Positions 2,927 to 24,000 of a stretch of 24,000 bases of DNA are shown here, one piece after another. The DNA is from Methanobacterium alkalithermotolerans. GTDB taxonomy: Archaea; Methanobacteriota; Methanobacteria; Methanobacteriales; Methanobacteriaceae. The notes under the pieces were generated by a model. That model searched no databases. It was not told where the DNA came from and saw nothing but the letters and a program-made list of their open reading frames with translations. Within the stretch, counting starts at the first letter, position 1; the number at the start of each line of letters is the position of its first letter. A program made the translations under genes and the position numbers. Location of the stretch: positions 903,447 to 927,446 of the forward strand of contig NZ_CP058560.1 of NCBI RefSeq assembly GCF_018141185.1, in the 5' to 3' direction.

Positions 2927-3646
2927 TTAAATACCAAATAAATTATTTATATCAGATAACTTTCCAGTAATAAAATCAGGAGGAATAGGGAAGAGATAGG
3001 CCAGTGTTAAAAATAGTGTTAAGGCGATTACCACAAATAATACTATTTTTTTATCCTCATTTACCGGGTAAAAGTAAGTCAGTGCCAGTCCACCAATTAA
3101 AAACCCCGCGATCATTAAGATTGCATAATAGTTCTCAGGATTATCCTGAGTAAATGTTTCATTTAAGGGTGTTAAACTAACTAAGTCTGTTTCAACTATC
3201 AAACGTTCCCGGGCAGAGCCTATAGGATGACAAGTAATTAAAAATAATTTTTCACCCTGTTCCACTGATATTCGGTAGGAAGCCGGGACAATAAAGGTAT
3301 TGTTAACCCTATATTCACCTTTTCCCACCCCCGGCCATTCCAGGAAAACAGAATCACCTGCTTTTAATCCATCCAATTTAAAAAAAGGTGATCCATACAT
3401 GGTACGATGTCCAAAAAGAATAACAGTTCCATTTCCAGGTTTCATGGATTGAGGTTCATGATATACACCATAGGAAACAGATTTATTATTAATATTTTGA
3501 GTAACATCAATAGAGGGCATTACCACAACCGCAGTGGTGGTATTGTTTTCCATTACAATTTGGGATGCATAAAAACTTACATCAATTAAAAAATAAAGGG
3601 ATATGATCAACATTCCCACTACAATAAAAAAGGTAGAGATTCGCAT
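2927..3646 (-). CDS. sortase-family transpeptidase homologue, membrane anchored
   Basis: 239-aa ORF. It has an N-terminal signal-anchor helix. The catalytic-triad-like motifs are TVILFGHR (His80), FLITCHP (Cys139, TLxTC-like) and RLIVE (Arg148), in the spacing seen in class C/D/E sortases. Two additional C-terminal transmembrane helices are present. There is no Shine-Dalgarno; a TATA-like box sits about 27 nt upstream of the ATG. Confidence 0.7.
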   Translation of the reverse strand: MRISTFFIVVGMLIISLYFLIDVSFYASQIVMENNTTTAVVVMPSIDVTQNINNKSVSYGVYHEPQSMKPGNGTVILFGHRTMYGSPFFKLDGLKAGDSVFLEWPGVGKGEYRVNNTFIVPASYRISVEQGEKLFLITCHPIGSARERLIVETDLVSLTPLNETFTQDNPENYYAILMIAGFLIGGLALTYFYPVNEDKKIVLFVVIALTLFLTLAYLFPIPPDFITGKLSDINNLFGI

Positions 3647-8243: not shown

Positions 8244-8873
8244 ATGATAGAAAGTAAAATAAAAGTTCTTAGAAAGGCAGCACAAGTATCTACTGCCCAG
8301 GATTCAGATAAAATATGGTGCGTTATTGCCGGTAATGAAGAAATGGTTAATAATGTAGCATATGCCGCAATATCTGCTAAAGAACGAGTTAAAATAGTTT
8401 TTCGAGAGCATGTTAATTTAAAAGAGTCATTTGTTCGAAAAAAATTTGATTTTATCATGTTACATGGCGACAGCAACATTATAAGAGAATTGAGTTTGAT
8501 TTGTAAAGAAAATGGTGGAGCTTATCTAAAAATAGCCCCATATTACGTTAAAAATGAATCAAATCTAATATTGCTGGTGGCACCAGATAATGCTATAAAA
8601 AAATTTGCAGGAGATGCTGAAAAAGATAATATTAAATTTTCATTTATACTGGAAGATAAAACGACTGGTTTTATAGAAACTGATGTTTCCATAACCAATC
8701 ACCTTCCTAAGCTACTGCGTGATGTGATAGATCCCTTATTCAAACTGACAGATATGGTTCTGTCAACCATACTCATCTCAACTGATGAGCAGTACATTAA
8801 ACAGATAAAAAAAGTTGCTAATTCTAACCAGATATTCGTTGTAGAGTTCAAAGAAATTATTGAGGAGGAGTAA
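8244..8873 (+). CDS. soluble protein of unknown function, translationally coupled to mreB
   Basis: ORF of about 209 aa with no transmembrane segment and no motif I recognise. The ATG at 8244 is preferred over the GTG at 8235. A TATA-like TTTATAA at 8210..8216 is spaced for a near-leaderless transcript. The final codons GAG GAG GAG form the Shine-Dalgarno for the next gene. Confidence 0.6.
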   Translation: MIESKIKVLRKAAQVSTAQDSDKIWCVIAGNEEMVNNVAYAAISAKERVKIVFREHVNLKESFVRKKFDFIMLHGDSNIIRELSLICKENGGAYLKIAPYYVKNESNLILLVAPDNAIKKFAGDAEKDNIKFSFILEDKTTGFIETDVSITNHLPKLLRDVIDPLFKLTDMVLSTILISTDEQYIKQIKKVANSNQIFVVEFKEIIEEE

Positions 8874-8874
8874 T

Positions 8875-9948
8875 ATGTTCTCATTTGGAAAAAAGAAGAA
8901 TAATGAAGAAGTAAGAAAAAAATCGCTTAATGATACTTTAGGAATTGATTTAGGTACTTTAAACACCGTGGTGGCCAAGCCATCAGGGGATAAATTTGAT
9001 TTATATAAAATTCCATCAGTAGTAGCCGTGAAAAAAGAAGACCCGTCCTATGTTCTGGCTGTAGGTGAAGAAGCAAAGATGATGCTGGGCAGAACTCCAG
9101 AAGACATAGTGGCCGTAAGACCACTACGAAAAGGAGTTATTGAGAGCGTAGCTCAGGCAGAAGCCTTGCTGGTCTATTCAATTGAACTGGGATCAGGAGA
9201 AGACAACACAAGTATTGACCGTATAGTAATTGGAATACCCGGAGATGCTTCTGAAGTAGAAAGAAATGCTGTAGAAGAAATTGGTAGAAAAGCTGGAGCC
9301 AGTTATGTACTGGTAATCAGTGAAGGACTTTCAGCTGCTATTGGTGCAGGTTTACCTATTGCAGAAGCTACCGGAACTATGGTTATTGATATTGGGGCCG
9401 GTTCCAGTGATATAGTTGTAATTTCACTAGGGGGAATCACCGACATAGAAACCATCCGCTGGGGTGGAGACGATATTGATGACAATATCGTGGACCAGGT
9501 AAAGGAAAAGTATGAAGTGGAGATAGGTATTCACGAAGCAGAAAAAGCCAAAATAGGGGTGGGAATGGTACATTCCAATATAGATATGGAACTGGATAAA
9601 ACTACAGTTATAGGAAAGTGCATGAAAACCAATAAGCCTAAGGAAGTAGAGATTGACTCCAATATGGTGGCAAATGCTGCAGAGCCAATAGTAGTAAAAA
9701 TTGTTGAAGCATTAGCGGTAGTCCTTGAAAGACTATCCCCTGAATTAATATCCGGAGTATACCAAAAAACGGTGGTTGTAGGTGGAACTTCACAATTAAA
9801 AGGCCTTAAAGAAAGGATTTATGAAGAAGTGGGAATTCCAGTAGAAATATCTGATGACCCTATGACAGTAGTGGCTAAAGGAGCAGCCATTGTAGCTGCA
9901 GAACCCCGTGCATTAGAACCTGAAGTGCGATTGAAAGCCATGAAATAA
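8875..9948 (+). CDS. mreB: actin-fold ATPase, MreB-like rod-shape protein
   Basis: The start is refined to the ATG at 8875; the track's 8860 is a TTG. A GAGGAGGAG Shine-Dalgarno lies upstream, and the upstream stop TAA (8871..8873) is 1 nt before the ATG. Actin/Hsp70-fold motifs: LGIDLGTLNTVVA (phosphate 1), MVIDIGAGSSDIVV (phosphate 2), VVVGGTSQLKGL (adenosine). The size fits MreB. A basic N-terminal extension MFSFGKKKNNEEVRKK is present. Confidence 0.8.
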   Translation: MFSFGKKKNNEEVRKKSLNDTLGIDLGTLNTVVAKPSGDKFDLYKIPSVVAVKKEDPSYVLAVGEEAKMMLGRTPEDIVAVRPLRKGVIESVAQAEALLVYSIELGSGEDNTSIDRIVIGIPGDASEVERNAVEEIGRKAGASYVLVISEGLSAAIGAGLPIAEATGTMVIDIGAGSSDIVVISLGGITDIETIRWGGDDIDDNIVDQVKEKYEVEIGIHEAEKAKIGVGMVHSNIDMELDKTTVIGKCMKTNKPKEVEIDSNMVANAAEPIVVKIVEALAVVLERLSPELISGVYQKTVVVGGTSQLKGLKERIYEEVGIPVEISDDPMTVVAKGAAIVAAEPRALEPEVRLKAMK

Positions 9949-10883: not shown

Positions 10884-11723
10884 ATGATTCTGGATTTTTT
10901 TACCAATACACTGGGAACTATCCTGGAAATGTTTAAAAGTGGAGGCATAATCACCTACCTCATTGCTATAGTAGGTATATATGGTGTATTTACCTCACTG
11001 GAAAAAATTGTTTATTTAAAAAAAATATCAAGAGTAAATACTGCTCAGATAATTGGAACCGTTAATGATTCTATGGAAAAAGGAGGGTCACTTGAGGCAC
11101 TAAGAGCCATCGGCCAATTCCAGAACCCTATATCCAAGATTATTTCTGAAGCCCTTAAAATTGGATACCGGAATAAGGGTGAAGTGGAAGATGCTATGGA
11201 AAGGGTATTCATCGTGGAAATGGGTAGGATGACCAAGGGCATGGAAACCCTGAAAACCATTATTGAAATAGCTCCCCTGATGGGTTTGATTGGTACAGTT
11301 ATTGGTATGTTTTATACCTTCCGGGAAATTGGAATGAGTGCCGAACCTGCTGCCCTGGCTGAAGGGATTTACATCGCATTAATAACCACCATTATGGGTT
11401 TAAGTGTAGCCATTGTACTGGTACCCTTCTATTCATATATAAAAAGCCATATTGATAAAGAAATGGACAGCATTGAACTTGCCAAAAAAATGACTAACTG
11501 GAGCTATGCTGTAATGAAAATAAAGGTGGATGCAGATCTTGAAGAGGCTATAGAGGCCTTACAGGTATCAGAAGGGATTGTTAATGTAAAAAAGATAAAT
11601 GATCCTGAGGCTAATATCTGGGTGGCCTTCAAACCCAGTATGCTGGAAAAGAGTATTAACAATATCATACTGGAAAAATGCAATACTAATGCCGAAATTG
11701 TGATGAGTAAACTCAAGCAGTAA
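10884..11723 (+). CDS. MotA/TolQ/ExbB-family proton-channel protein with an extra C-terminal soluble domain
   Basis: 279-aa ORF with three transmembrane helices. The family signature is IEIAPLMGLIGTVIGM followed by ALITTIMGLSVAI. About 75 additional C-terminal residues (11496..11720) show an alternating beta/alpha pattern. Confidence 0.8.
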   Translation: MILDFFTNTLGTILEMFKSGGIITYLIAIVGIYGVFTSLEKIVYLKKISRVNTAQIIGTVNDSMEKGGSLEALRAIGQFQNPISKIISEALKIGYRNKGEVEDAMERVFIVEMGRMTKGMETLKTIIEIAPLMGLIGTVIGMFYTFREIGMSAEPAALAEGIYIALITTIMGLSVAIVLVPFYSYIKSHIDKEMDSIELAKKMTNWSYAVMKIKVDADLEEAIEALQVSEGIVNVKKINDPEANIWVAFKPSMLEKSINNIILEKCNTNAEIVMSKLKQ

Positions 11724-11787
11724 AACATCCACTATCCCGGCATTAAAATAGAAACTTTCCTAAAATAAATAAAAAAGGGTTTTTTAC

Positions 11788-12183
11788 ATGACTATGGATA
11801 TACAAAAATACCGTAATCAACTAAACAGTAGTAGCCCTAAATTTAATATGGTTCCTTTCATTGACATTCTTTTTACCATATTAATCTTTTTAGTGGTTAC
11901 CAGTACATTTCAGGTTGCGGATCAATCAGCGGCAGTTACCGGTAAACCAGAAATAGATGAAAATGCAGGTCCATCTGAATATTATTTAATACCGGTGGCG
12001 GGTTTAAGAGAAGTACTAGTTAATGGGGAAGATATGTCCCGTTTTATTAGAAATAGTGCGATTGCAGTGCATACCCGGGTGATTGATGAAGGTGAGCTTA
12101 TTATAAAACCCAAGGAGGGTAAAATAATAATTACATCCCCACCAGACCTGCCTACAAATAAAGCAGTTAAATCTCCAGAATAG
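11788..12183 (+). CDS. ExbD/TolR-family protein
   Basis: 131-aa ORF. The N-terminal FNMVPFIDILFTILIFLVVTSTF single transmembrane helix is typical of ExbD/TolR. It lies 64 nt downstream of the ExbB-like gene, with an AAGGG ribosome-binding site. Confidence 0.75.
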   Translation: MTMDIQKYRNQLNSSSPKFNMVPFIDILFTILIFLVVTSTFQVADQSAAVTGKPEIDENAGPSEYYLIPVAGLREVLVNGEDMSRFIRNSAIAVHTRVIDEGELIIKPKEGKIIITSPPDLPTNKAVKSPE

Positions 12184-21447: not shown

Positions 21448-22569
21448 CTAGGCAAACATGTTCTTGGGCTCATTCTTTTCTGTTTGATAATTTTTAAGGG
21501 CGTATTCAATATCTTCCCTGTCCACTGTAGATTTATCCTCAGAAATGGCCTTGTGCAGAGCGGTTTTAAGTAATTTTTCTTTAATATCTCTTCCTGACAT
21601 TCCTTTGGATGATTGGGCTAATTTAGTACGGGATACTTTTACCTCCAGAGGCATGGATTCAATATATTTTTCAATCATTTCCCTTCTTTCATTCTCATCT
21701 GGTAGTTTAAATTCAATTTCCTCTTCGAATCTACTCCGGATGGCATAGTCTAGAAGTGAAGGATTATTAGTAGCTCCAATGGTAACCACCCCCAGGTTAT
21801 CTTTAATTCCATCCATTTCAGTTAGAAGGGCATTAACAACTTCGGATACATCCCCTCTTAAAGACTGGAATTTACGATCAAGGGCAATAGCATCAATTTC
21901 ATCAATAAATATCACAGAGGGTGAAGTTTTTGAAGCCAGATCATATAAATCGTGTATTTGTCGAGATCCATCCCCCACATGATCTCCAATTAAACTGGTG
22001 GCCTTTATCAGGTATAGAGGAACTTTTAGTTCCCCTGATAGTGATTTAGCCAGCATGGTTTTACCTGTACCGGGAGTACCATAAAATAGCACATTCCGGG
22101 GGGCCCATCCCTTGAAGTGTTCCGGGTCCTTCAGGTACTTTTGTATAATCTTACATTTCAATTTAGCCTGTTTTTGGCCAATCACATCTTCCATTTTGAT
22201 GTCAGTTTCCATATTTTTAATTTCATTGATTTCCTGATTATCAATCAAAATAATAGATGTTGAGGAAGTGATTTTAGAGTTATCAGGATGGGCTTTTATT
22301 ACTTTAAAAGCAAAGTCGGGCAATATTTTTTGATCAAATAAAAATGAACCCTCCACTGCATTAAAGCCCTCCCATTGTTCCCGGGCATAAATTTCAAAAA
22401 GTTGTTTATCAAATACTTCTATTTTGGGAGTATCAATTAAATTACAGCTGAAAGGGTACCCTACGGGTTGTAAAACAACCACTTTAGATTCTTTCAAGGA
22501 ATCCCTGGAATTTATGGATGATTTATTTTCAATAATATGTGAATCATAAACTATATTGTTAAATTTCAC
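21448..22569 (-). CDS. classical-clade AAA ATPase (single AAA module, MJ1494-like) with an N-terminal domain of about 130 aa
   Basis: GTG start with a GGTGAT Shine-Dalgarno. Walker A GTPGTGKT, Walker B VIFIDEID, second region of homology [17 protein letters not shown]. The stop lies 36 nt upstream of the DUF4013-like gene on the same strand. Confidence 0.8.
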
Positions 22570-22725
22570 TGCATCACCTGAATTTAAAAAAAAGTTAAAA
22601 TATAATGATAATTGTTTTGTATTAAAGACATATATGCTTTTGGAAGACTATATATTTTTTCAAAAAGAGATTAGATTAATATCTTGAGGGGATATAAATT
22701 CCCATGAGGATTTAAAAATAATATT

Positions 22726-22857
22726 CAAAAGTTGAACCCGGGGCAGAAATAGATACATTTGGCTAAGGATTAGAGGTTGATACCCACCCCAGGACAACGA
22801 TTGATAGAAACCACGAAACATTGCAAACACGAAAAATGATAATTTCATGGTATAAAA
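22726..22857 (-). repeat. 132-nt repeated element, copy A (candidate structured RNA; orientation inferred)
   Basis: Identical at all 132 positions to 22924..23055 by manual alignment. The strand is inferred from G-U pairs in the predicted helices. Confidence 0.85.
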
Positions 22858-22923
22858 CAACCCCATAAACATCTAATCAATTCAAAATACTTAATTTTGA
22901 AAAGGCAAAAGCCTTAAATGAAA

Positions 22924-23055
22924 CAAAAGTTGAACCCGGGGCAGAAATAGATACATTTGGCTAAGGATTAGAGGTTGATACCCACCCCAGGACAACGATT
23001 GATAGAAACCACGAAACATTGCAAACACGAAAAATGATAATTTCATGGTATAAAA
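22924..23055 (-). repeat. 132-nt repeated element, copy B
   Basis: Identical to copy A, at a 198-nt period. On the minus strand it is followed by the hairpin AAGGC-UUUU-GCCUU (22902..22915) and U-rich sequence. Confidence 0.85.
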
Positions 23056-23119
23056 TTCTTTATTTGACACTGCATTTTGAAATTTTATTTTTCATTAATA
23101 CATAGATTAATAGCATGAA

Positions 23120-23210
23120 CAAAAGTTGAACCCGGGGCAGAAATGGATACATTTGGTTAGGATTAGAGGTTGATACCCACCCCAGGACAACGATTGATGG
23201 AAACCATGAA
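23120..23210 (-). repeat. diverged or truncated third copy of the element (core of about 91 nt)
   Basis: Matches the first 92 nt or so (plus-strand reading) of copies A and B, with 4 substitutions (23145, 23157, 23199, 23207) and a 1-nt deletion. It is unrelated beyond about 23210. Confidence 0.8.
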
Positions 23211-23294
23211 TCAGCAAAAAATCCCTGGATAAGAAGGTTTTTTGGCAGAAGAACATTAACCAGGGTTTTGCTAGATTGGATGAAAAGTAGATTT

Positions 23295-23419
23295 TTTAGG
23301 TATGCCTAAAAACTCTATAGTTTAATGTGGATGTTTCCCATATATAAAGTTTAGGTATGCCTAAAACTACTTAATTAGAGGTAGGCTTTTCTAGTATATA
23401 AAAGTTTAGGTGTGCCTAA
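23295..23419. repeat. three copies at 55-bp period of the palindrome TTTAGGT(A/G)TGCCTAA(A), each adjoining a TATATAAA(A) box
   Basis: Palindromes lie at 23295..23310, 23350..23365 and 23405..23419. TATA-like boxes lie at 23340..23348 and 23395..23403. The inter-palindrome segments are weakly similar to each other (degenerate 55-bp tandem repeat). Confidence 0.8.
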
Positions 23420-23422
23420 TTT

Positions 23423-24000
23423 TTATTTCATATTATCAAAACAATTTTTAAGTCGCAGTGCATCCTGATCAATTAAAGGAGTCTCACAGATGATGGTTGA
23501 ATTCCAACCACTCTCTTTTAAAACTTCAAGTAATGGCTTTACCGGAGGTCCATATTCTTTTTCAGAGAGAATATGGTGTTTTTTTTCACCTGAATCGCCA
23601 AATTCAATGCGGGTAAAATGGCAGTGCAGATGATCTATATCCAGTTCATTGTCCAGTATATCTAAAATTTGATGATAGTCCTCTCTAGATTTAATTTTCC
23701 CACCACTCCGGGCATATAAATGTGCAAAATCAATAGTAGGCTGGAATTTATCCAGGGACTGACAAATATCAATAATTTCTTCTAAGGTACCTAACTGAGA
23801 TTTTTTTCCAGTGGTTTCCGGGGCAAAAGTGAAATTTTTTATTCCTTCTGCATCCAGTTTTTCAAGTACTGTTTCTAAAGATTCCTTACATTTTTTAAGG
23901 GCTTCTTCAGGAGTATATTTGGTATAAAATCCTGGATGGAAAACAATACGATAAGCTCCCATCCATTCTGCTGCCCGGGCAGACTGGACTAGTCTTTCAA
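23423..24000 (-). CDS. endonuclease IV / AP endonuclease family 2-like TIM-barrel protein, 5' end outside the window
   Basis: The reading frame stays open upstream of the track's Met through the window edge (..[16 protein letters not shown]..). Segments align with E. coli Nfo landmarks: VFHPG (NFHPG), APETTGK (VIENTAG), TIDFAHLYA (CIDTCHAFA), HCHF..GEKKHH (HLND..DRHH), IICETP (LILET). Confidence 0.65.

What the first reader, a model, noticed from the sequence alone, without database searches (positions are those of the whole stretch)
22726..23210. Three tandem copies of a 132-nt element whose helices only work on the minus strand, upstream of the AAA ATPase operon
Seen directly: 22726..22857 and 22924..23055 are identical at all 132 positions. 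The 66-nt and 64-nt linkers that separate the copies are unrelated to each other, so this is not a simple recent tandem duplication of a 198-bp unit. A third copy (23120..23210) keeps only the first 92 nt or so, with 4 substitutions and one 1-nt deletion. Read on the minus strand, the element folds into a 5' hairpin CAUGAAA-N8-UUUCGUG. It also forms a long-range helix, GUUG-U-CCUGGGG pairing with CCCCGGG-UU-CAAC. That helix encloses two small hairpins, GGGU-AUCA-ACCU and AAAUG-UAUC-UAUUU. Each of these four helices contains one G-U pair that would be an A-C mismatch on the plus strand, which argues for a minus-strand RNA. The substitution at 23145 in copy C converts the G-U of the AAAUG hairpin into G-C, so it is structure-preserving. 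Copy B is followed on the minus strand by a hairpin AAGGC-UUUU-GCCUU plus U-rich sequence. All copies point toward the AAA ATPase start at 22569. They could therefore be tandem sRNA genes or repeated cis-regulatory leader modules. I cannot match the element to any RNA family I know.
Basis: partly seen in the sequence, partly recalled or inferred. Interest (0 to 1): 0.75.

Follow-up and report, generated by a model that had tools for sequence, protein, structure and literature searches.

The report
Candidate iron-regulated small RNA, tandemly amplified
The three repeats are copies of a previously undescribed structured non-coding RNA gene of Methanobacterium alkalithermotolerans; its original copy sits behind a promoter with three binding boxes of the type an archaeal iron-sensing repressor uses, and some strains carry one copy and others three.

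Summary
22726-22857 and 22924-23055 are identical, and a third related copy lies at about 23115-23225. The interpretation needs re-centring.

- **Copy C is the ancestral gene, not a truncated copy.** Five related lineages carry exactly one copy at this locus, each with copy C's 5' domain.
- **It follows an archaeal-type promoter.** TATA-like boxes alternate with three palindromes TTTAGGCATACCTAAA spaced 55 nt apart. These match the published ChIP-seq motif of the Haloferax iron regulator TroR (DtxR family). In sister species the same boxes control a feoAB iron-uptake operon at this chromosomal position.
- **Two long hairpins are conserved**, with compensatory changes, and three sequence blocks are conserved. 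No reading frame is conserved. T-runs follow the last helix in four of five lineages.
- **Not a leader of the AAA ATPase.** That gene has its own conserved promoter-like box downstream of the repeats.
- **Copy number varies.** Strains with an identical AAA ATPase carry one or three copies.
- **No known family matches.** Rfam gives no match, and the core was found only at this locus in the genome, metagenome and viral collections.

Best reading: a clade-restricted, probably iron-regulated small RNA gene with strain-variable tandem amplification. Transcription, iron response and targets are all untested.

The parts
23405..23420 (-). Box 1: ATTAGGCACACCTAAA, a palindromic operator-like site, starting 3 nt after the stop codon of the upstream AP_endonuc_2 gene
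   Evidence: One mismatch to TTTAGGCNNNCCTAAA. It lies 55 nt from box 2. A box is present upstream of the element in all orthologous loci.
23395..23404 (-). TATA-like box 1 (CTTTTATATA), directly downstream of box 1
   Evidence: That it acts as an archaeal promoter is inferred from the consensus, not shown.
23350..23365 (-). Box 2: TTTAGGCATACCTAAA
   Evidence: Exact match to the Haloferax TroR ChIP-seq motif TTTAGGC-NNN-CCTAAA (PMC10783522 read).
23341..23349 (-). TATA-like box 2 (CTTTATATA). The inferred transcription start is near 23318.
   Evidence: 23341-23352 is the only perfect AAANTTTATATA in the 24-kb window. The box-then-TATA order is the same in L001/L020 and L019, and L034 has it at its only TATA; L035 has TTTTTTAG instead. 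The start site is inferred from usual archaeal TATA-to-start spacing.
23295..23310 (-). Box 3: TTTAGGCATACCTAAA, just downstream of the inferred start site
   Evidence: A TATA followed about 30 nt later by a box is also seen in L034 and in the feoAB promoters of L015 and L036.
23212..23273 (-). P1, the long 5' hairpin of the ancestral copy C (UAGCAAAACCCUGG ... CCAGGGAUUUUUUGCUG). Its apical loop carries the conserved block UUCUUCUGCCAA (23242-23253).
   Evidence: RNAalifold consensus with compensatory changes in L019, L034 and L035. Coordinates.
23115..23211 (-). 3' domain of copy C. It holds the conserved single-stranded block GUUUCCAUCAAU (23193-23204) and helix P2 (5' arm 23176-23191, 3' arm 23125-23143). 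P2 encloses the conserved loop AUCC(U)UAGCCAAAUGUAUC, followed by CAACUUUUG.
   Evidence: The covariance model scores 108 bits here.
23056..23119 (-). Linker 2, between copies C and B
   Evidence: Unrelated to linker 1. It is 100% identical in the FCS_M genome, whose AAA gene is only 92% identical.
22924..23055 (-). Copy B. It has a derived 5' part (23009-23055) that starts with the TATA-like TTTTATAC and can form the hairpin CCAUGAAAU/AUGUUUCGUGG. This is followed by the same 3' domain.
   Evidence: (116.5 bits).
22858..22923 (-). Linker 1, with the hairpin AAGGC-UUUU-GCCUU plus U-run (22900-22915), which looks like a terminator
   Evidence: Function is inferred.
22726..22857 (-). Copy A, identical to copy B
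   Evidence: 115.8 bits.
22714..22730 (-). T-runs (UUUUGAAUAUUAUUUUU) after the last copy, a likely archaeal termination signal. The same sequence follows the single copy in one-copy strains.
   Evidence: Termination is inferred.
22629..22641 (-). The AAA ATPase gene's own promoter-like box (AAAAGCATATATG), downstream of all the copies
   Evidence: Conserved upstream of the AAA gene in every species examined, including L015, L016 and L018, which lack the element.
21448..22569 (-). Context gene: AAA ATPase (PRS2_N + AAA + AAA_lid_PRS2_C), 100% identical to the Methanobacterium alkalithermotolerans protein

Best explanation
The element is a clade-restricted gene for a structured non-coding RNA of roughly 190-200 nt, read on the window's minus strand.

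**The ancestral gene is copy C.** It is driven by an archaeal-type promoter in which TATA-like boxes alternate with three palindromic boxes, TTTAGGCATACCTAAA, spaced 55 nt apart. These boxes match the binding motif of the archaeal DtxR-family iron regulator TroR.

**Proposed regulation (inferred).** With enough iron the repressor occupies the boxes and blocks transcription. When iron is scarce the RNA is made.

**Architecture.**
- Two long hairpins, P1 and P2.
- Three conserved, probably exposed blocks: UUCUUCUGCCAA in the P1 loop, GUUUCCAUCAAU between the hairpins, and AUCCUUAGCCAAAUGUAUC in the P2 loop.
- A U-run after P2.

This is the build of a trans-acting regulatory RNA that pairs with mRNAs, or binds a protein, through its exposed blocks.

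**Amplification.** In the M. alkalithermotolerans/FCS_M group the 3' domain was amplified in tandem. Copies A and B carry a different 5' part that begins with a TATA-like TTTTATAC and has no boxes. They could be transcribed by read-through from copy C or from their own weak promoters. Recombination between the about 90-nt identical cores then explains why strains carry one or three copies.

**Shown:** repeat anatomy, conservation, helix covariation, absence of an ORF, motif match, copy-number polymorphism.

**Inferred:** transcription, iron response, trans action.
For: **Orthologues.** Single-copy orthologues lie at the same place, between AP_endonuc_2 and the AAA ATPase. They are found in J_0 (L001, L020), L019, L034 and L035; L014 is partial.

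**Structure.**
- RNAalifold finds P1 and P2. 92.4% of cells are paired, against 30-61% when partners are slid, and 5 pairs show changes on both sides.
- The inferred full transcript folds with z = -4.45.
- Five of the 25 pairs are G-U in M. alkalithermotolerans, which fits only the minus strand.

**Non-coding.** Frames are broken by indels in J_0 and by stops in all frames in L019, L034 and L035. The ORF products have no Pfam match.

**Promoter and boxes.**
- The boxes are the only matches to TTTAGGCNNNCCTAAA in 24 kb; 0 of 100 shuffles reach that count.
- They equal the TroR motif TTTAGGC-NNN-CCTAAAANAN found by ChIP-seq in Haloferax (PMC10783522).
- In M. alcaliphilum-like genomes (L015, L018, L036) two such boxes 55 nt apart, with a TATA between them, precede a p93-feoA-feoB operon at the same locus.

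**Independent unit.** The AAA gene has its own conserved promoter-like box. T-runs follow P2 in four of five lineages.

**Selection or recent exchange.** Against FCS_M, the units, linker 2, P1 and the boxes are 97-100% identical (copy C's core 95.7%). The AAA coding sequence is 92% identical and the unrelated intergenic stretch 89%.

**Polymorphism.** Several independent assemblies support each state among strains with an identical AAA ATPase. One of them is a 2.2-Mb contig with one copy.
Against: - There are no expression data of any kind. Promoter, start site and terminators are read from consensus only.
- The covariation rests on three divergent lineages. Two of them (L019, L034) are close to each other, so there are few independent events.
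- L035 does not fold better than shuffles (z = -0.24). In L034 the antisense strand folds at least as well, so thermodynamics alone does not fix the strand outside M. alkalithermotolerans.
- The link to iron is by motif identity with a haloarchaeal regulator and by association with feoAB in sister species. No regulator gene was identified in this genome.
- No target was found. Duplex energies with the 24 start regions in the window are no better than for shuffled probes.
- Copies A and B lack the boxes and P1, so their expression and role are unclear.
Confidence: 0.5

Rival explanations
1. It is a long, structured 5' leader. An iron-regulated distal promoter transcribes through the element or elements into the AAA ATPase/DUF4013 genes, and the repeats act in cis on those genes.
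For: All units point toward the AAA start at 22569, with no gene in between. The T-runs after copies C and B are short (T4), so read-through is conceivable. In sister species the boxes also lie upstream of the AAA gene, divergent from feoAB.
Against: - A promoter-like box about 60-70 nt upstream of the AAA start is conserved in all species, including those with no element and no boxes (L016, L017).
- The about 85 nt between the last unit and that box is not conserved.
- A T5 run follows the last unit.
- The element is missing from most Methanobacteriaceae, which have the same AAA gene.
Confidence: 0.12
2. It is a non-coding RNA that acts by binding and titrating a protein rather than by base pairing. 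Each unit displays GCCAA-containing loops, and amplification adds binding sites, in the manner of CsrB or RsmZ.
For: Both conserved apical loops contain GCCAA (CUGCCAA and UAGCCAAA). Tandem amplification of a stem-loop module multiplies such sites. No mRNA target was found.
Against: There are only two motif occurrences per ancestral RNA. No candidate protein is known. The target search covered only about 1% of the genome.
Confidence: 0.12
3. It is a non-functional remnant. A rearrangement at a variable spot, where sister species carry p93-feoAB, left a promoter fragment and junk sequence, and that sequence was later duplicated by slippage or unequal crossing-over.
For: - The locus varies among species: plain (L016), feoAB operon (L015, L018, L036) or element.
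- The family is confined to a narrow clade.
- L035 folds poorly.
- Copy number varies without obvious cost.
Against: - Sequence blocks and both helices persist in lineages whose AAA gene is only about 79-80% identical at the DNA level (L019, L034), while neighbouring intergenic DNA is unalignable.
- There are compensatory changes.
- The region is more conserved than the flanking coding DNA between species.
- The box-TATA arrangement keeps its orientation toward the element in all five lineages.
Confidence: 0.15
4. It is a small-protein gene family. The minus-strand ORFs of 70, 59 and 49 aa that overlap the copies (MKLSFFVFAMFRGFYQSLSWGGYQPLIL...) encode small hydrophobic proteins.
For: ORFs exist at 22660-22872, 22891-23070 and 23107-23256, all on the minus strand. 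Two start at an ATG inside the identical unit.
Against: - Copy C of the window is frameshifted.
- J_0 has two 1-nt indels and ATT in place of the ATG.
- L019, L034 and L035 have stops in every frame across the element.
- There is no Pfam match.
- The C-terminal tails differ because they run into unrelated linkers.
Confidence: 0.02
5. It is a DNA-level element: a miniature mobile element, an attachment or recombination site, or a CRISPR-like repeat-spacer array.
For: Identical repeats are separated by unique 'spacers' of about 65 nt, with a divergent end copy. Assemblies break at the repeats. Copy number is polymorphic.
Against: - The 22-nt core occurs only at this locus in 185,579 species genomes. 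The conserved 19-nt block gave no true hit elsewhere in metagenomes or viral contigs.
- There are no terminal inverted repeats and no target duplication.
- The units are 132 nt, far longer than CRISPR repeats, and no cas genes were found among the neighbours scanned.
- G-U pairs and compensatory changes argue for a single-stranded RNA.
Confidence: 0.03

Closest known systems
PrrF1/PrrF2 of Pseudomonas aeruginosa, and RyhB-type iron-sparing sRNAs in general (from established knowledge)
   Same: A small non-coding RNA gene whose promoter carries the operator of the iron-sensing repressor. There are tandem near-identical copies about 100 nt apart, and read-through across copies is possible. The RNA ends in a stem plus U-run.
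   Different: - There is no sequence or structure homology: Rfam gives no match.
- The host is an archaeon, the promoter is of the archaeal TATA type, and the operator is of DtxR/TroR type rather than Fur type.
- Only the first copy has the operator.
- Iron response and targets are untested.
TroR (DtxR family) regulon of Haloferax volcanii (PMC10783522)
   Same: The boxes TTTAGGCATACCTAAA fit the ChIP-seq motif TTTAGGC-NNN-CCTAAAANAN. There are several boxes in one promoter. In sister species the same boxes precede iron-uptake genes (feoAB).
   Different: The host is a methanogen of another class, and the regulator itself was not identified here. The controlled product is a non-coding RNA. My search of that paper found no occurrence of 'sRNA' or 'small RNA'.
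Characterised methanoarchaeal sRNAs, such as sRNA162 of Methanosarcina mazei (PMC3510493, seen only as a search result)
   Same: A structured, trans-acting archaeal sRNA with separate functional domains is an established kind.
   Different: The sequence and host are unrelated, and those sRNAs respond to nitrogen or carbon cues. No tandem amplification or metal operator is described for them, to my knowledge.
MDR1 promoter of Archaeoglobus fulgidus (from established knowledge: a DtxR-family repressor that binds three operator sites around the start site)
   Same: Three repressor sites are arranged around an archaeal TATA box and start site.
   Different: MDR1 controls its own operon with an ABC transporter, not an RNA gene. 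The similarity is recalled from memory and was not tested here.

Membership tests
Any Rfam 15 RNA family | Covariance-model score at or above the family's gathering threshold | tested here: not met
   There were 0 matches in the window at gathering thresholds. At E up to 10 over 22500-23500, the only row overlapping a copy at any length is a 12.9-bit match to a human lncRNA model, which is noise.
Repressor-controlled trans-acting sRNA (RyhB/PrrF-like in function) | Operator of a metal-sensing repressor in the promoter of the RNA gene | tested here: met
   Three boxes match TTTAGGCNNNCCTAAA and alternate with TATA-like boxes. The motif is from PMC10783522. Binding itself was not tested.
Repressor-controlled trans-acting sRNA (RyhB/PrrF-like in function) | A discrete, non-coding transcript | tested here: inconclusive
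   The non-coding nature is supported. Promoter and T-runs are present. No transcript data are available with these tools.
Repressor-controlled trans-acting sRNA (RyhB/PrrF-like in function) | Conserved exposed region that pairs with target mRNAs | tested here: inconclusive
   Three blocks are conserved in loops or linkers. No above-background duplex was found with the 24 start regions of the window. The rest of the genome could not be searched.
Repressor-controlled trans-acting sRNA (RyhB/PrrF-like in function) | Sequence homology to RyhB or PrrF | tested here: not met
   No Rfam match. The resemblance is functional only.
DtxR/TroR iron regulon | The same operator upstream of iron-homeostasis genes in related genomes | tested here: met
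   L015, L018 and L036 have paired boxes 55 nt apart upstream of p93-feoA-feoB.
DtxR/TroR iron regulon | A DtxR-family regulator encoded in the genome and binding the boxes | not tested
Cis-regulatory leader or riboswitch of the AAA ATPase | The downstream gene depends on the promoter upstream of the element, and the element co-occurs with the gene | tested here: not met
   The AAA gene has its own conserved promoter-like box. AAA orthologues at 66-79% identity lack the element.
Small-protein gene | Reading frame conserved among orthologues | tested here: not met
   Frameshifts and stops in J_0, L019, L034, L035 and window copy C.
Miniature mobile element (MITE) or insertion sequence | Terminal inverted repeats, target duplication, and copies dispersed in the genome | tested here: not met
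   No terminal inverted repeats. The core was found only at this locus in the collections scanned. A complete genome of the species itself could not be scanned.
CRISPR array | Short repeats (about 23-50 nt), many spacers, usually cas genes nearby | tested here: not met
   The repeats are 132 nt, there are only two spacers, and the neighbouring genes are housekeeping.

The most novel reading that the evidence does not exclude
This would be the first regulatory small RNA shown to be controlled by an iron-sensing DtxR/TroR-type repressor in a methanogen, and possibly in any archaeon. It would be a functional counterpart of bacterial RyhB/PrrF. It sits at the position where sister species carry the feoAB iron-uptake operon under the same operator. 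It is also caught in the act of tandem amplification, with strains carrying one or three copies.
Probability: 0.4. Interest if true: 0.7.

Novelty: new member of a known kind. Interest (0 to 1): 0.5.

Why it matters
Methanogens need large amounts of iron, yet how they adjust gene expression to iron supply after transcription is essentially unknown. Regulatory small RNAs tied to a defined metal sensor have, to my knowledge, not been described in archaea; two literature searches here found none.

This locus gives a concrete and cheap test: one promoter with three recognisable repressor boxes, one RNA of about 200 nt, natural one-copy and three-copy strains of a cultivated species, and five orthologues for target prediction.

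It also shows how a small-RNA gene can be amplified and homogenised within a species. This matters for annotation because the repeats break short-read assemblies at this spot.

Tried and rejected
**Searches for known families or more homologues**
- Rfam at gathering and at permissive thresholds, and a tRNA/tmRNA scan, found nothing.
- Metagenome scan with the conserved 19-mer: only two true hits, both already-known lineages. The other nine were chance matches. L027 scored 32.9 bits with my model but lies antisense inside a 228-aa ORF of an unrelated AT-rich organism.
- Viral contig scan found nothing.
- The covariance model of the 3' domain, run over all sequence held (163 kb), found no copy outside this locus.

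**Alternative readings tested**
- Protein-coding: rejected on frame analysis.
- Remnant of the p93 or feoA genes of sister species: tblastn shows no similarity, best E about 4-10.

**Uninformative tests**
- Target search in the window: duplex energies are no better than for shuffled probes.
- Thermodynamic strand test in orthologues: not decisive. L034 antisense z = -3.4, L035 sense z = -0.24.
- Search for the FeoB of M. alkalithermotolerans, to see whether its own feoAB promoter carries the boxes: no protein named for this species among the best 120 hits, so this is untested.
- Literature searches on the species, on DtxR operators in methanogens and on iron-responsive archaeal sRNAs: nothing on this element. 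The TroR motif paper was the only useful find.

**Not used**
- The sigma-70 promoter and terminator scan, because archaeal promoters are not covered.

Full report
**Observation.** The repeat is real.
- 22726-22857 and 22924-23055 are identical over 132 nt, and a third related copy starts at about 23119.
- A 32-nt core occurs exactly three times, always on the minus strand, against 0 expected by chance.
- The two linkers are unrelated.
- The unit folds clearly better as minus-strand RNA (z = -3.5) than as plus-strand RNA (z = -1.15).
- Rfam has no match at curated or permissive thresholds, and there is no tRNA.

**Source and neighbours.**
- The AAA ATPase downstream (21448-22569, minus strand) has PRS2_N, AAA and PRS2 lid domains. 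It is 100% identical to the protein of Methanobacterium alkalithermotolerans.
- The gene upstream on the same strand is a TIM-barrel AP_endonuc_2 protein.
- The rest of the window is housekeeping.

**Not a protein.** Minus-strand ORFs of 70, 59 and 49 aa overlap the three copies, so coding had to be excluded.
- Copy C of the window is frameshifted.
- The 93%-related species J_0 has two single-base indels and no ATG.
- The more distant orthologues L019, L034 and L035 have stops in every frame across the element.
- The ORF products have no Pfam match.

**Copy number varies between strains.** Ten assemblies encode an AAA ATPase identical to the window's.
- Four carry three copies, like the window (L006, L008, L009, L010).
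- Five carry one copy (L004, L005, L007, L012, L013). One of these is a 2.2-Mb contig.
- One has a gap of Ns at the repeats (L011).
- The one-copy allele equals the 5' part of copy C joined to the 3' flank of copy A. That is the product expected from recombination between the identical cores.
- In the FCS_M genome the contigs end inside the repeats.
- Within a genome the cores are homogenised. FCS_M has the same two variants (G and C) in both its C-type and A-type copies, while L006 has A and T in all three.
- The window's own copy C carries two private changes.

**Copy C is the ancestral gene.** Single-copy orthologues lie at the same position in J_0 (L001, L020, L026), L019, L034 and L035, and partly in L014. 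All have the 5' domain of copy C, not that of copies A and B. The 5' part of A and B (22811-22857) is a diverged, partly duplicated version. It is found only in M. alkalithermotolerans and FCS_M, where it is 100% identical.

**Structure.** An alignment of seven full-length sequences gives two consensus helices.
- P1 is a long hairpin (UAGCAAAACCCUGG ... CCAGGGAUUUUUUGCUG).
UCUGCCCCGGG).
- 92.4% of cells are paired, against 30-61% when partners are slid by 1-3 columns.
- Five pairs change on both sides, for example G-C to A-U at two P2 positions in L019 and L034.
- Three blocks are conserved in sequence and lie in loops or between helices: UUCUUCUGCCAA, GUUUCCAUCAAU and AUCCUUAGCCAAAUNUAUC.

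*Caveats.* There are few independent lineages. L035 does not fold better than shuffles. In L034 the antisense strand folds as well as the sense strand.

**Promoter and boxes.**
- Immediately after the stop codon of the upstream gene lie three palindromes at 23405-23420, 23350-23365 and 23295-23310, spaced 55 nt apart.
- The first two are each followed by a TATA-like box on the minus strand. 23341-23352 is the only perfect AAANTTTATATA in the window.
- On the minus strand two boxes read TTTAGGCATACCTAAA and one ATTAGGCACACCTAAA. These are the only matches to TTTAGGCNNNCCTAAA in 24 kb.
- A ChIP-seq study of Haloferax volcanii reports TTTAGGC-NNN-CCTAAAANAN as the motif of TroR. TroR is the DtxR-family repressor of iron-uptake genes under iron-replete conditions (PMC10783522).
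- Boxes precede the element in all five lineages. A TATA-like box follows a box in four; L035 has TTTTTTAG there instead.
- In the M. alcaliphilum-like sister clade the same chromosomal position holds a p93-feoA-feoB operon on the other strand. It is preceded by two such boxes 55 nt apart with a TATA between them.
- A third clade (L016, L017) has neither boxes, operon nor element.

**Independence from the AAA gene.**
- A promoter-like box (AAAAGCATATATG, 22629-22641) lies between the last copy and the AAA start. It is conserved in every species examined, with or without the element.
- The about 85 nt between element and box is not alignable between lineages.
- T-runs follow P2 in four of five lineages.

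**Distribution.**
- The 22-nt core was found only at this locus, in two other species genomes out of 185,579.
- The conserved 19-mer gave only known lineages in metagenomes and nothing in viral contigs.
- My covariance model found no other copy in the 163 kb held.
- Between M. alkalithermotolerans and FCS_M, the units, linker 2, P1 and the boxes are 97-100% identical (copy C's core 95.7%). The AAA coding sequence is 92% identical and the neighbouring intergenic DNA 89%. This points to selection or to recent exchange.

**Interpretation.** The best-supported reading is a clade-restricted gene for a structured non-coding RNA, under a DtxR/TroR-type and therefore probably iron-responsive promoter, with tandem amplification of its 3' domain in some strains.
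- I put about 0.75 on 'structured minus-strand non-coding RNA'.
- I put about 0.6 on control through the boxes.
- I put about 0.5 on the combined statement.

Transcription, iron response and mode of action (pairing with mRNAs or binding a protein) are inferred. A search for targets in this window was uninformative.

The closest analogue in function is PrrF1/PrrF2 of Pseudomonas: tandem sRNA genes under the iron repressor. There is no homology to it. The rival readings, scored separately, are a cis leader of the AAA gene, a protein-binding RNA, a decaying remnant, a small protein and a DNA-level element.

Noticed in passing
window 23295-23420; also L015:2215-2228, L018:2151-2219, L036:4017-4085: Palindromic TTTAGGC-NNN-CCTAAA boxes, always about 55 nt apart with a TATA box between them, form a conserved promoter module. 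It occurs in front of feoAB in sister species and in front of the RNA element here. It matches the Haloferax TroR motif and could be used to define the iron regulon of Methanobacteriaceae.
   Followed up: partly
L015:1906-2187 (minus strand) and L036:4123-4404: A conserved 93-aa protein with no Pfam match is the first gene of the box-controlled operon, directly upstream of feoA and feoB, in M. alcaliphilum-like genomes. It is a possible unknown partner of the Feo system.
   Followed up: no
AP_endonuc_2 to AAA ATPase interval in L016, L015/L018/L036, and window 22570-23422: The same intergenic position exists in three states among related species: empty, a p93-feoAB operon on the opposite strand, or the RNA element. 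It is a hot spot of rearrangement. No FeoB named for M. alkalithermotolerans appeared among the best 120 homologues of the M. alcaliphilum FeoB, so this species may lack that operon or have a distant version.
   Followed up: partly
L002:1-90 compared with window 23056-23119: Linker 2 and the A/B-specific 5' part are 100% identical between M. alkalithermotolerans and the FCS_M genome, although their AAA genes are only 92% identical. This suggests recent exchange of the array between lineages, or selection on the 'spacer' itself.
   Followed up: partly
window 22604-22626 compared with 22835-22857 and 23033-23055: A 23-nt stretch just upstream of the AAA start (AATGATAATTGTTTTGTATTAAA) is 78% similar to the plus-strand end of units A and B (AATGATAATTTCATGGTATAAAA). 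It may be chance in AT-rich DNA, or a trace of how the A/B 5' part arose.
   Followed up: no
window 10884-12183: A MotA/ExbB-like and an ExbD-like gene pair lies next to RNase HII. An MreB gene is at 8860-9948 and a sortase-domain gene at 2927-3646. All are ordinary for Methanobacteriaceae as far as I know, but the ExbBD pair has no obvious TonB-type partner in the window.
   Followed up: no
L011:about 2370-2770; ends of L002, L003 and L014: Short-read assemblies gap (L011) or end (L002, L003) inside the repeats, and L014 ends inside its copy of the element, so copy number in draft genomes of this group is unreliable.
   Followed up: yes
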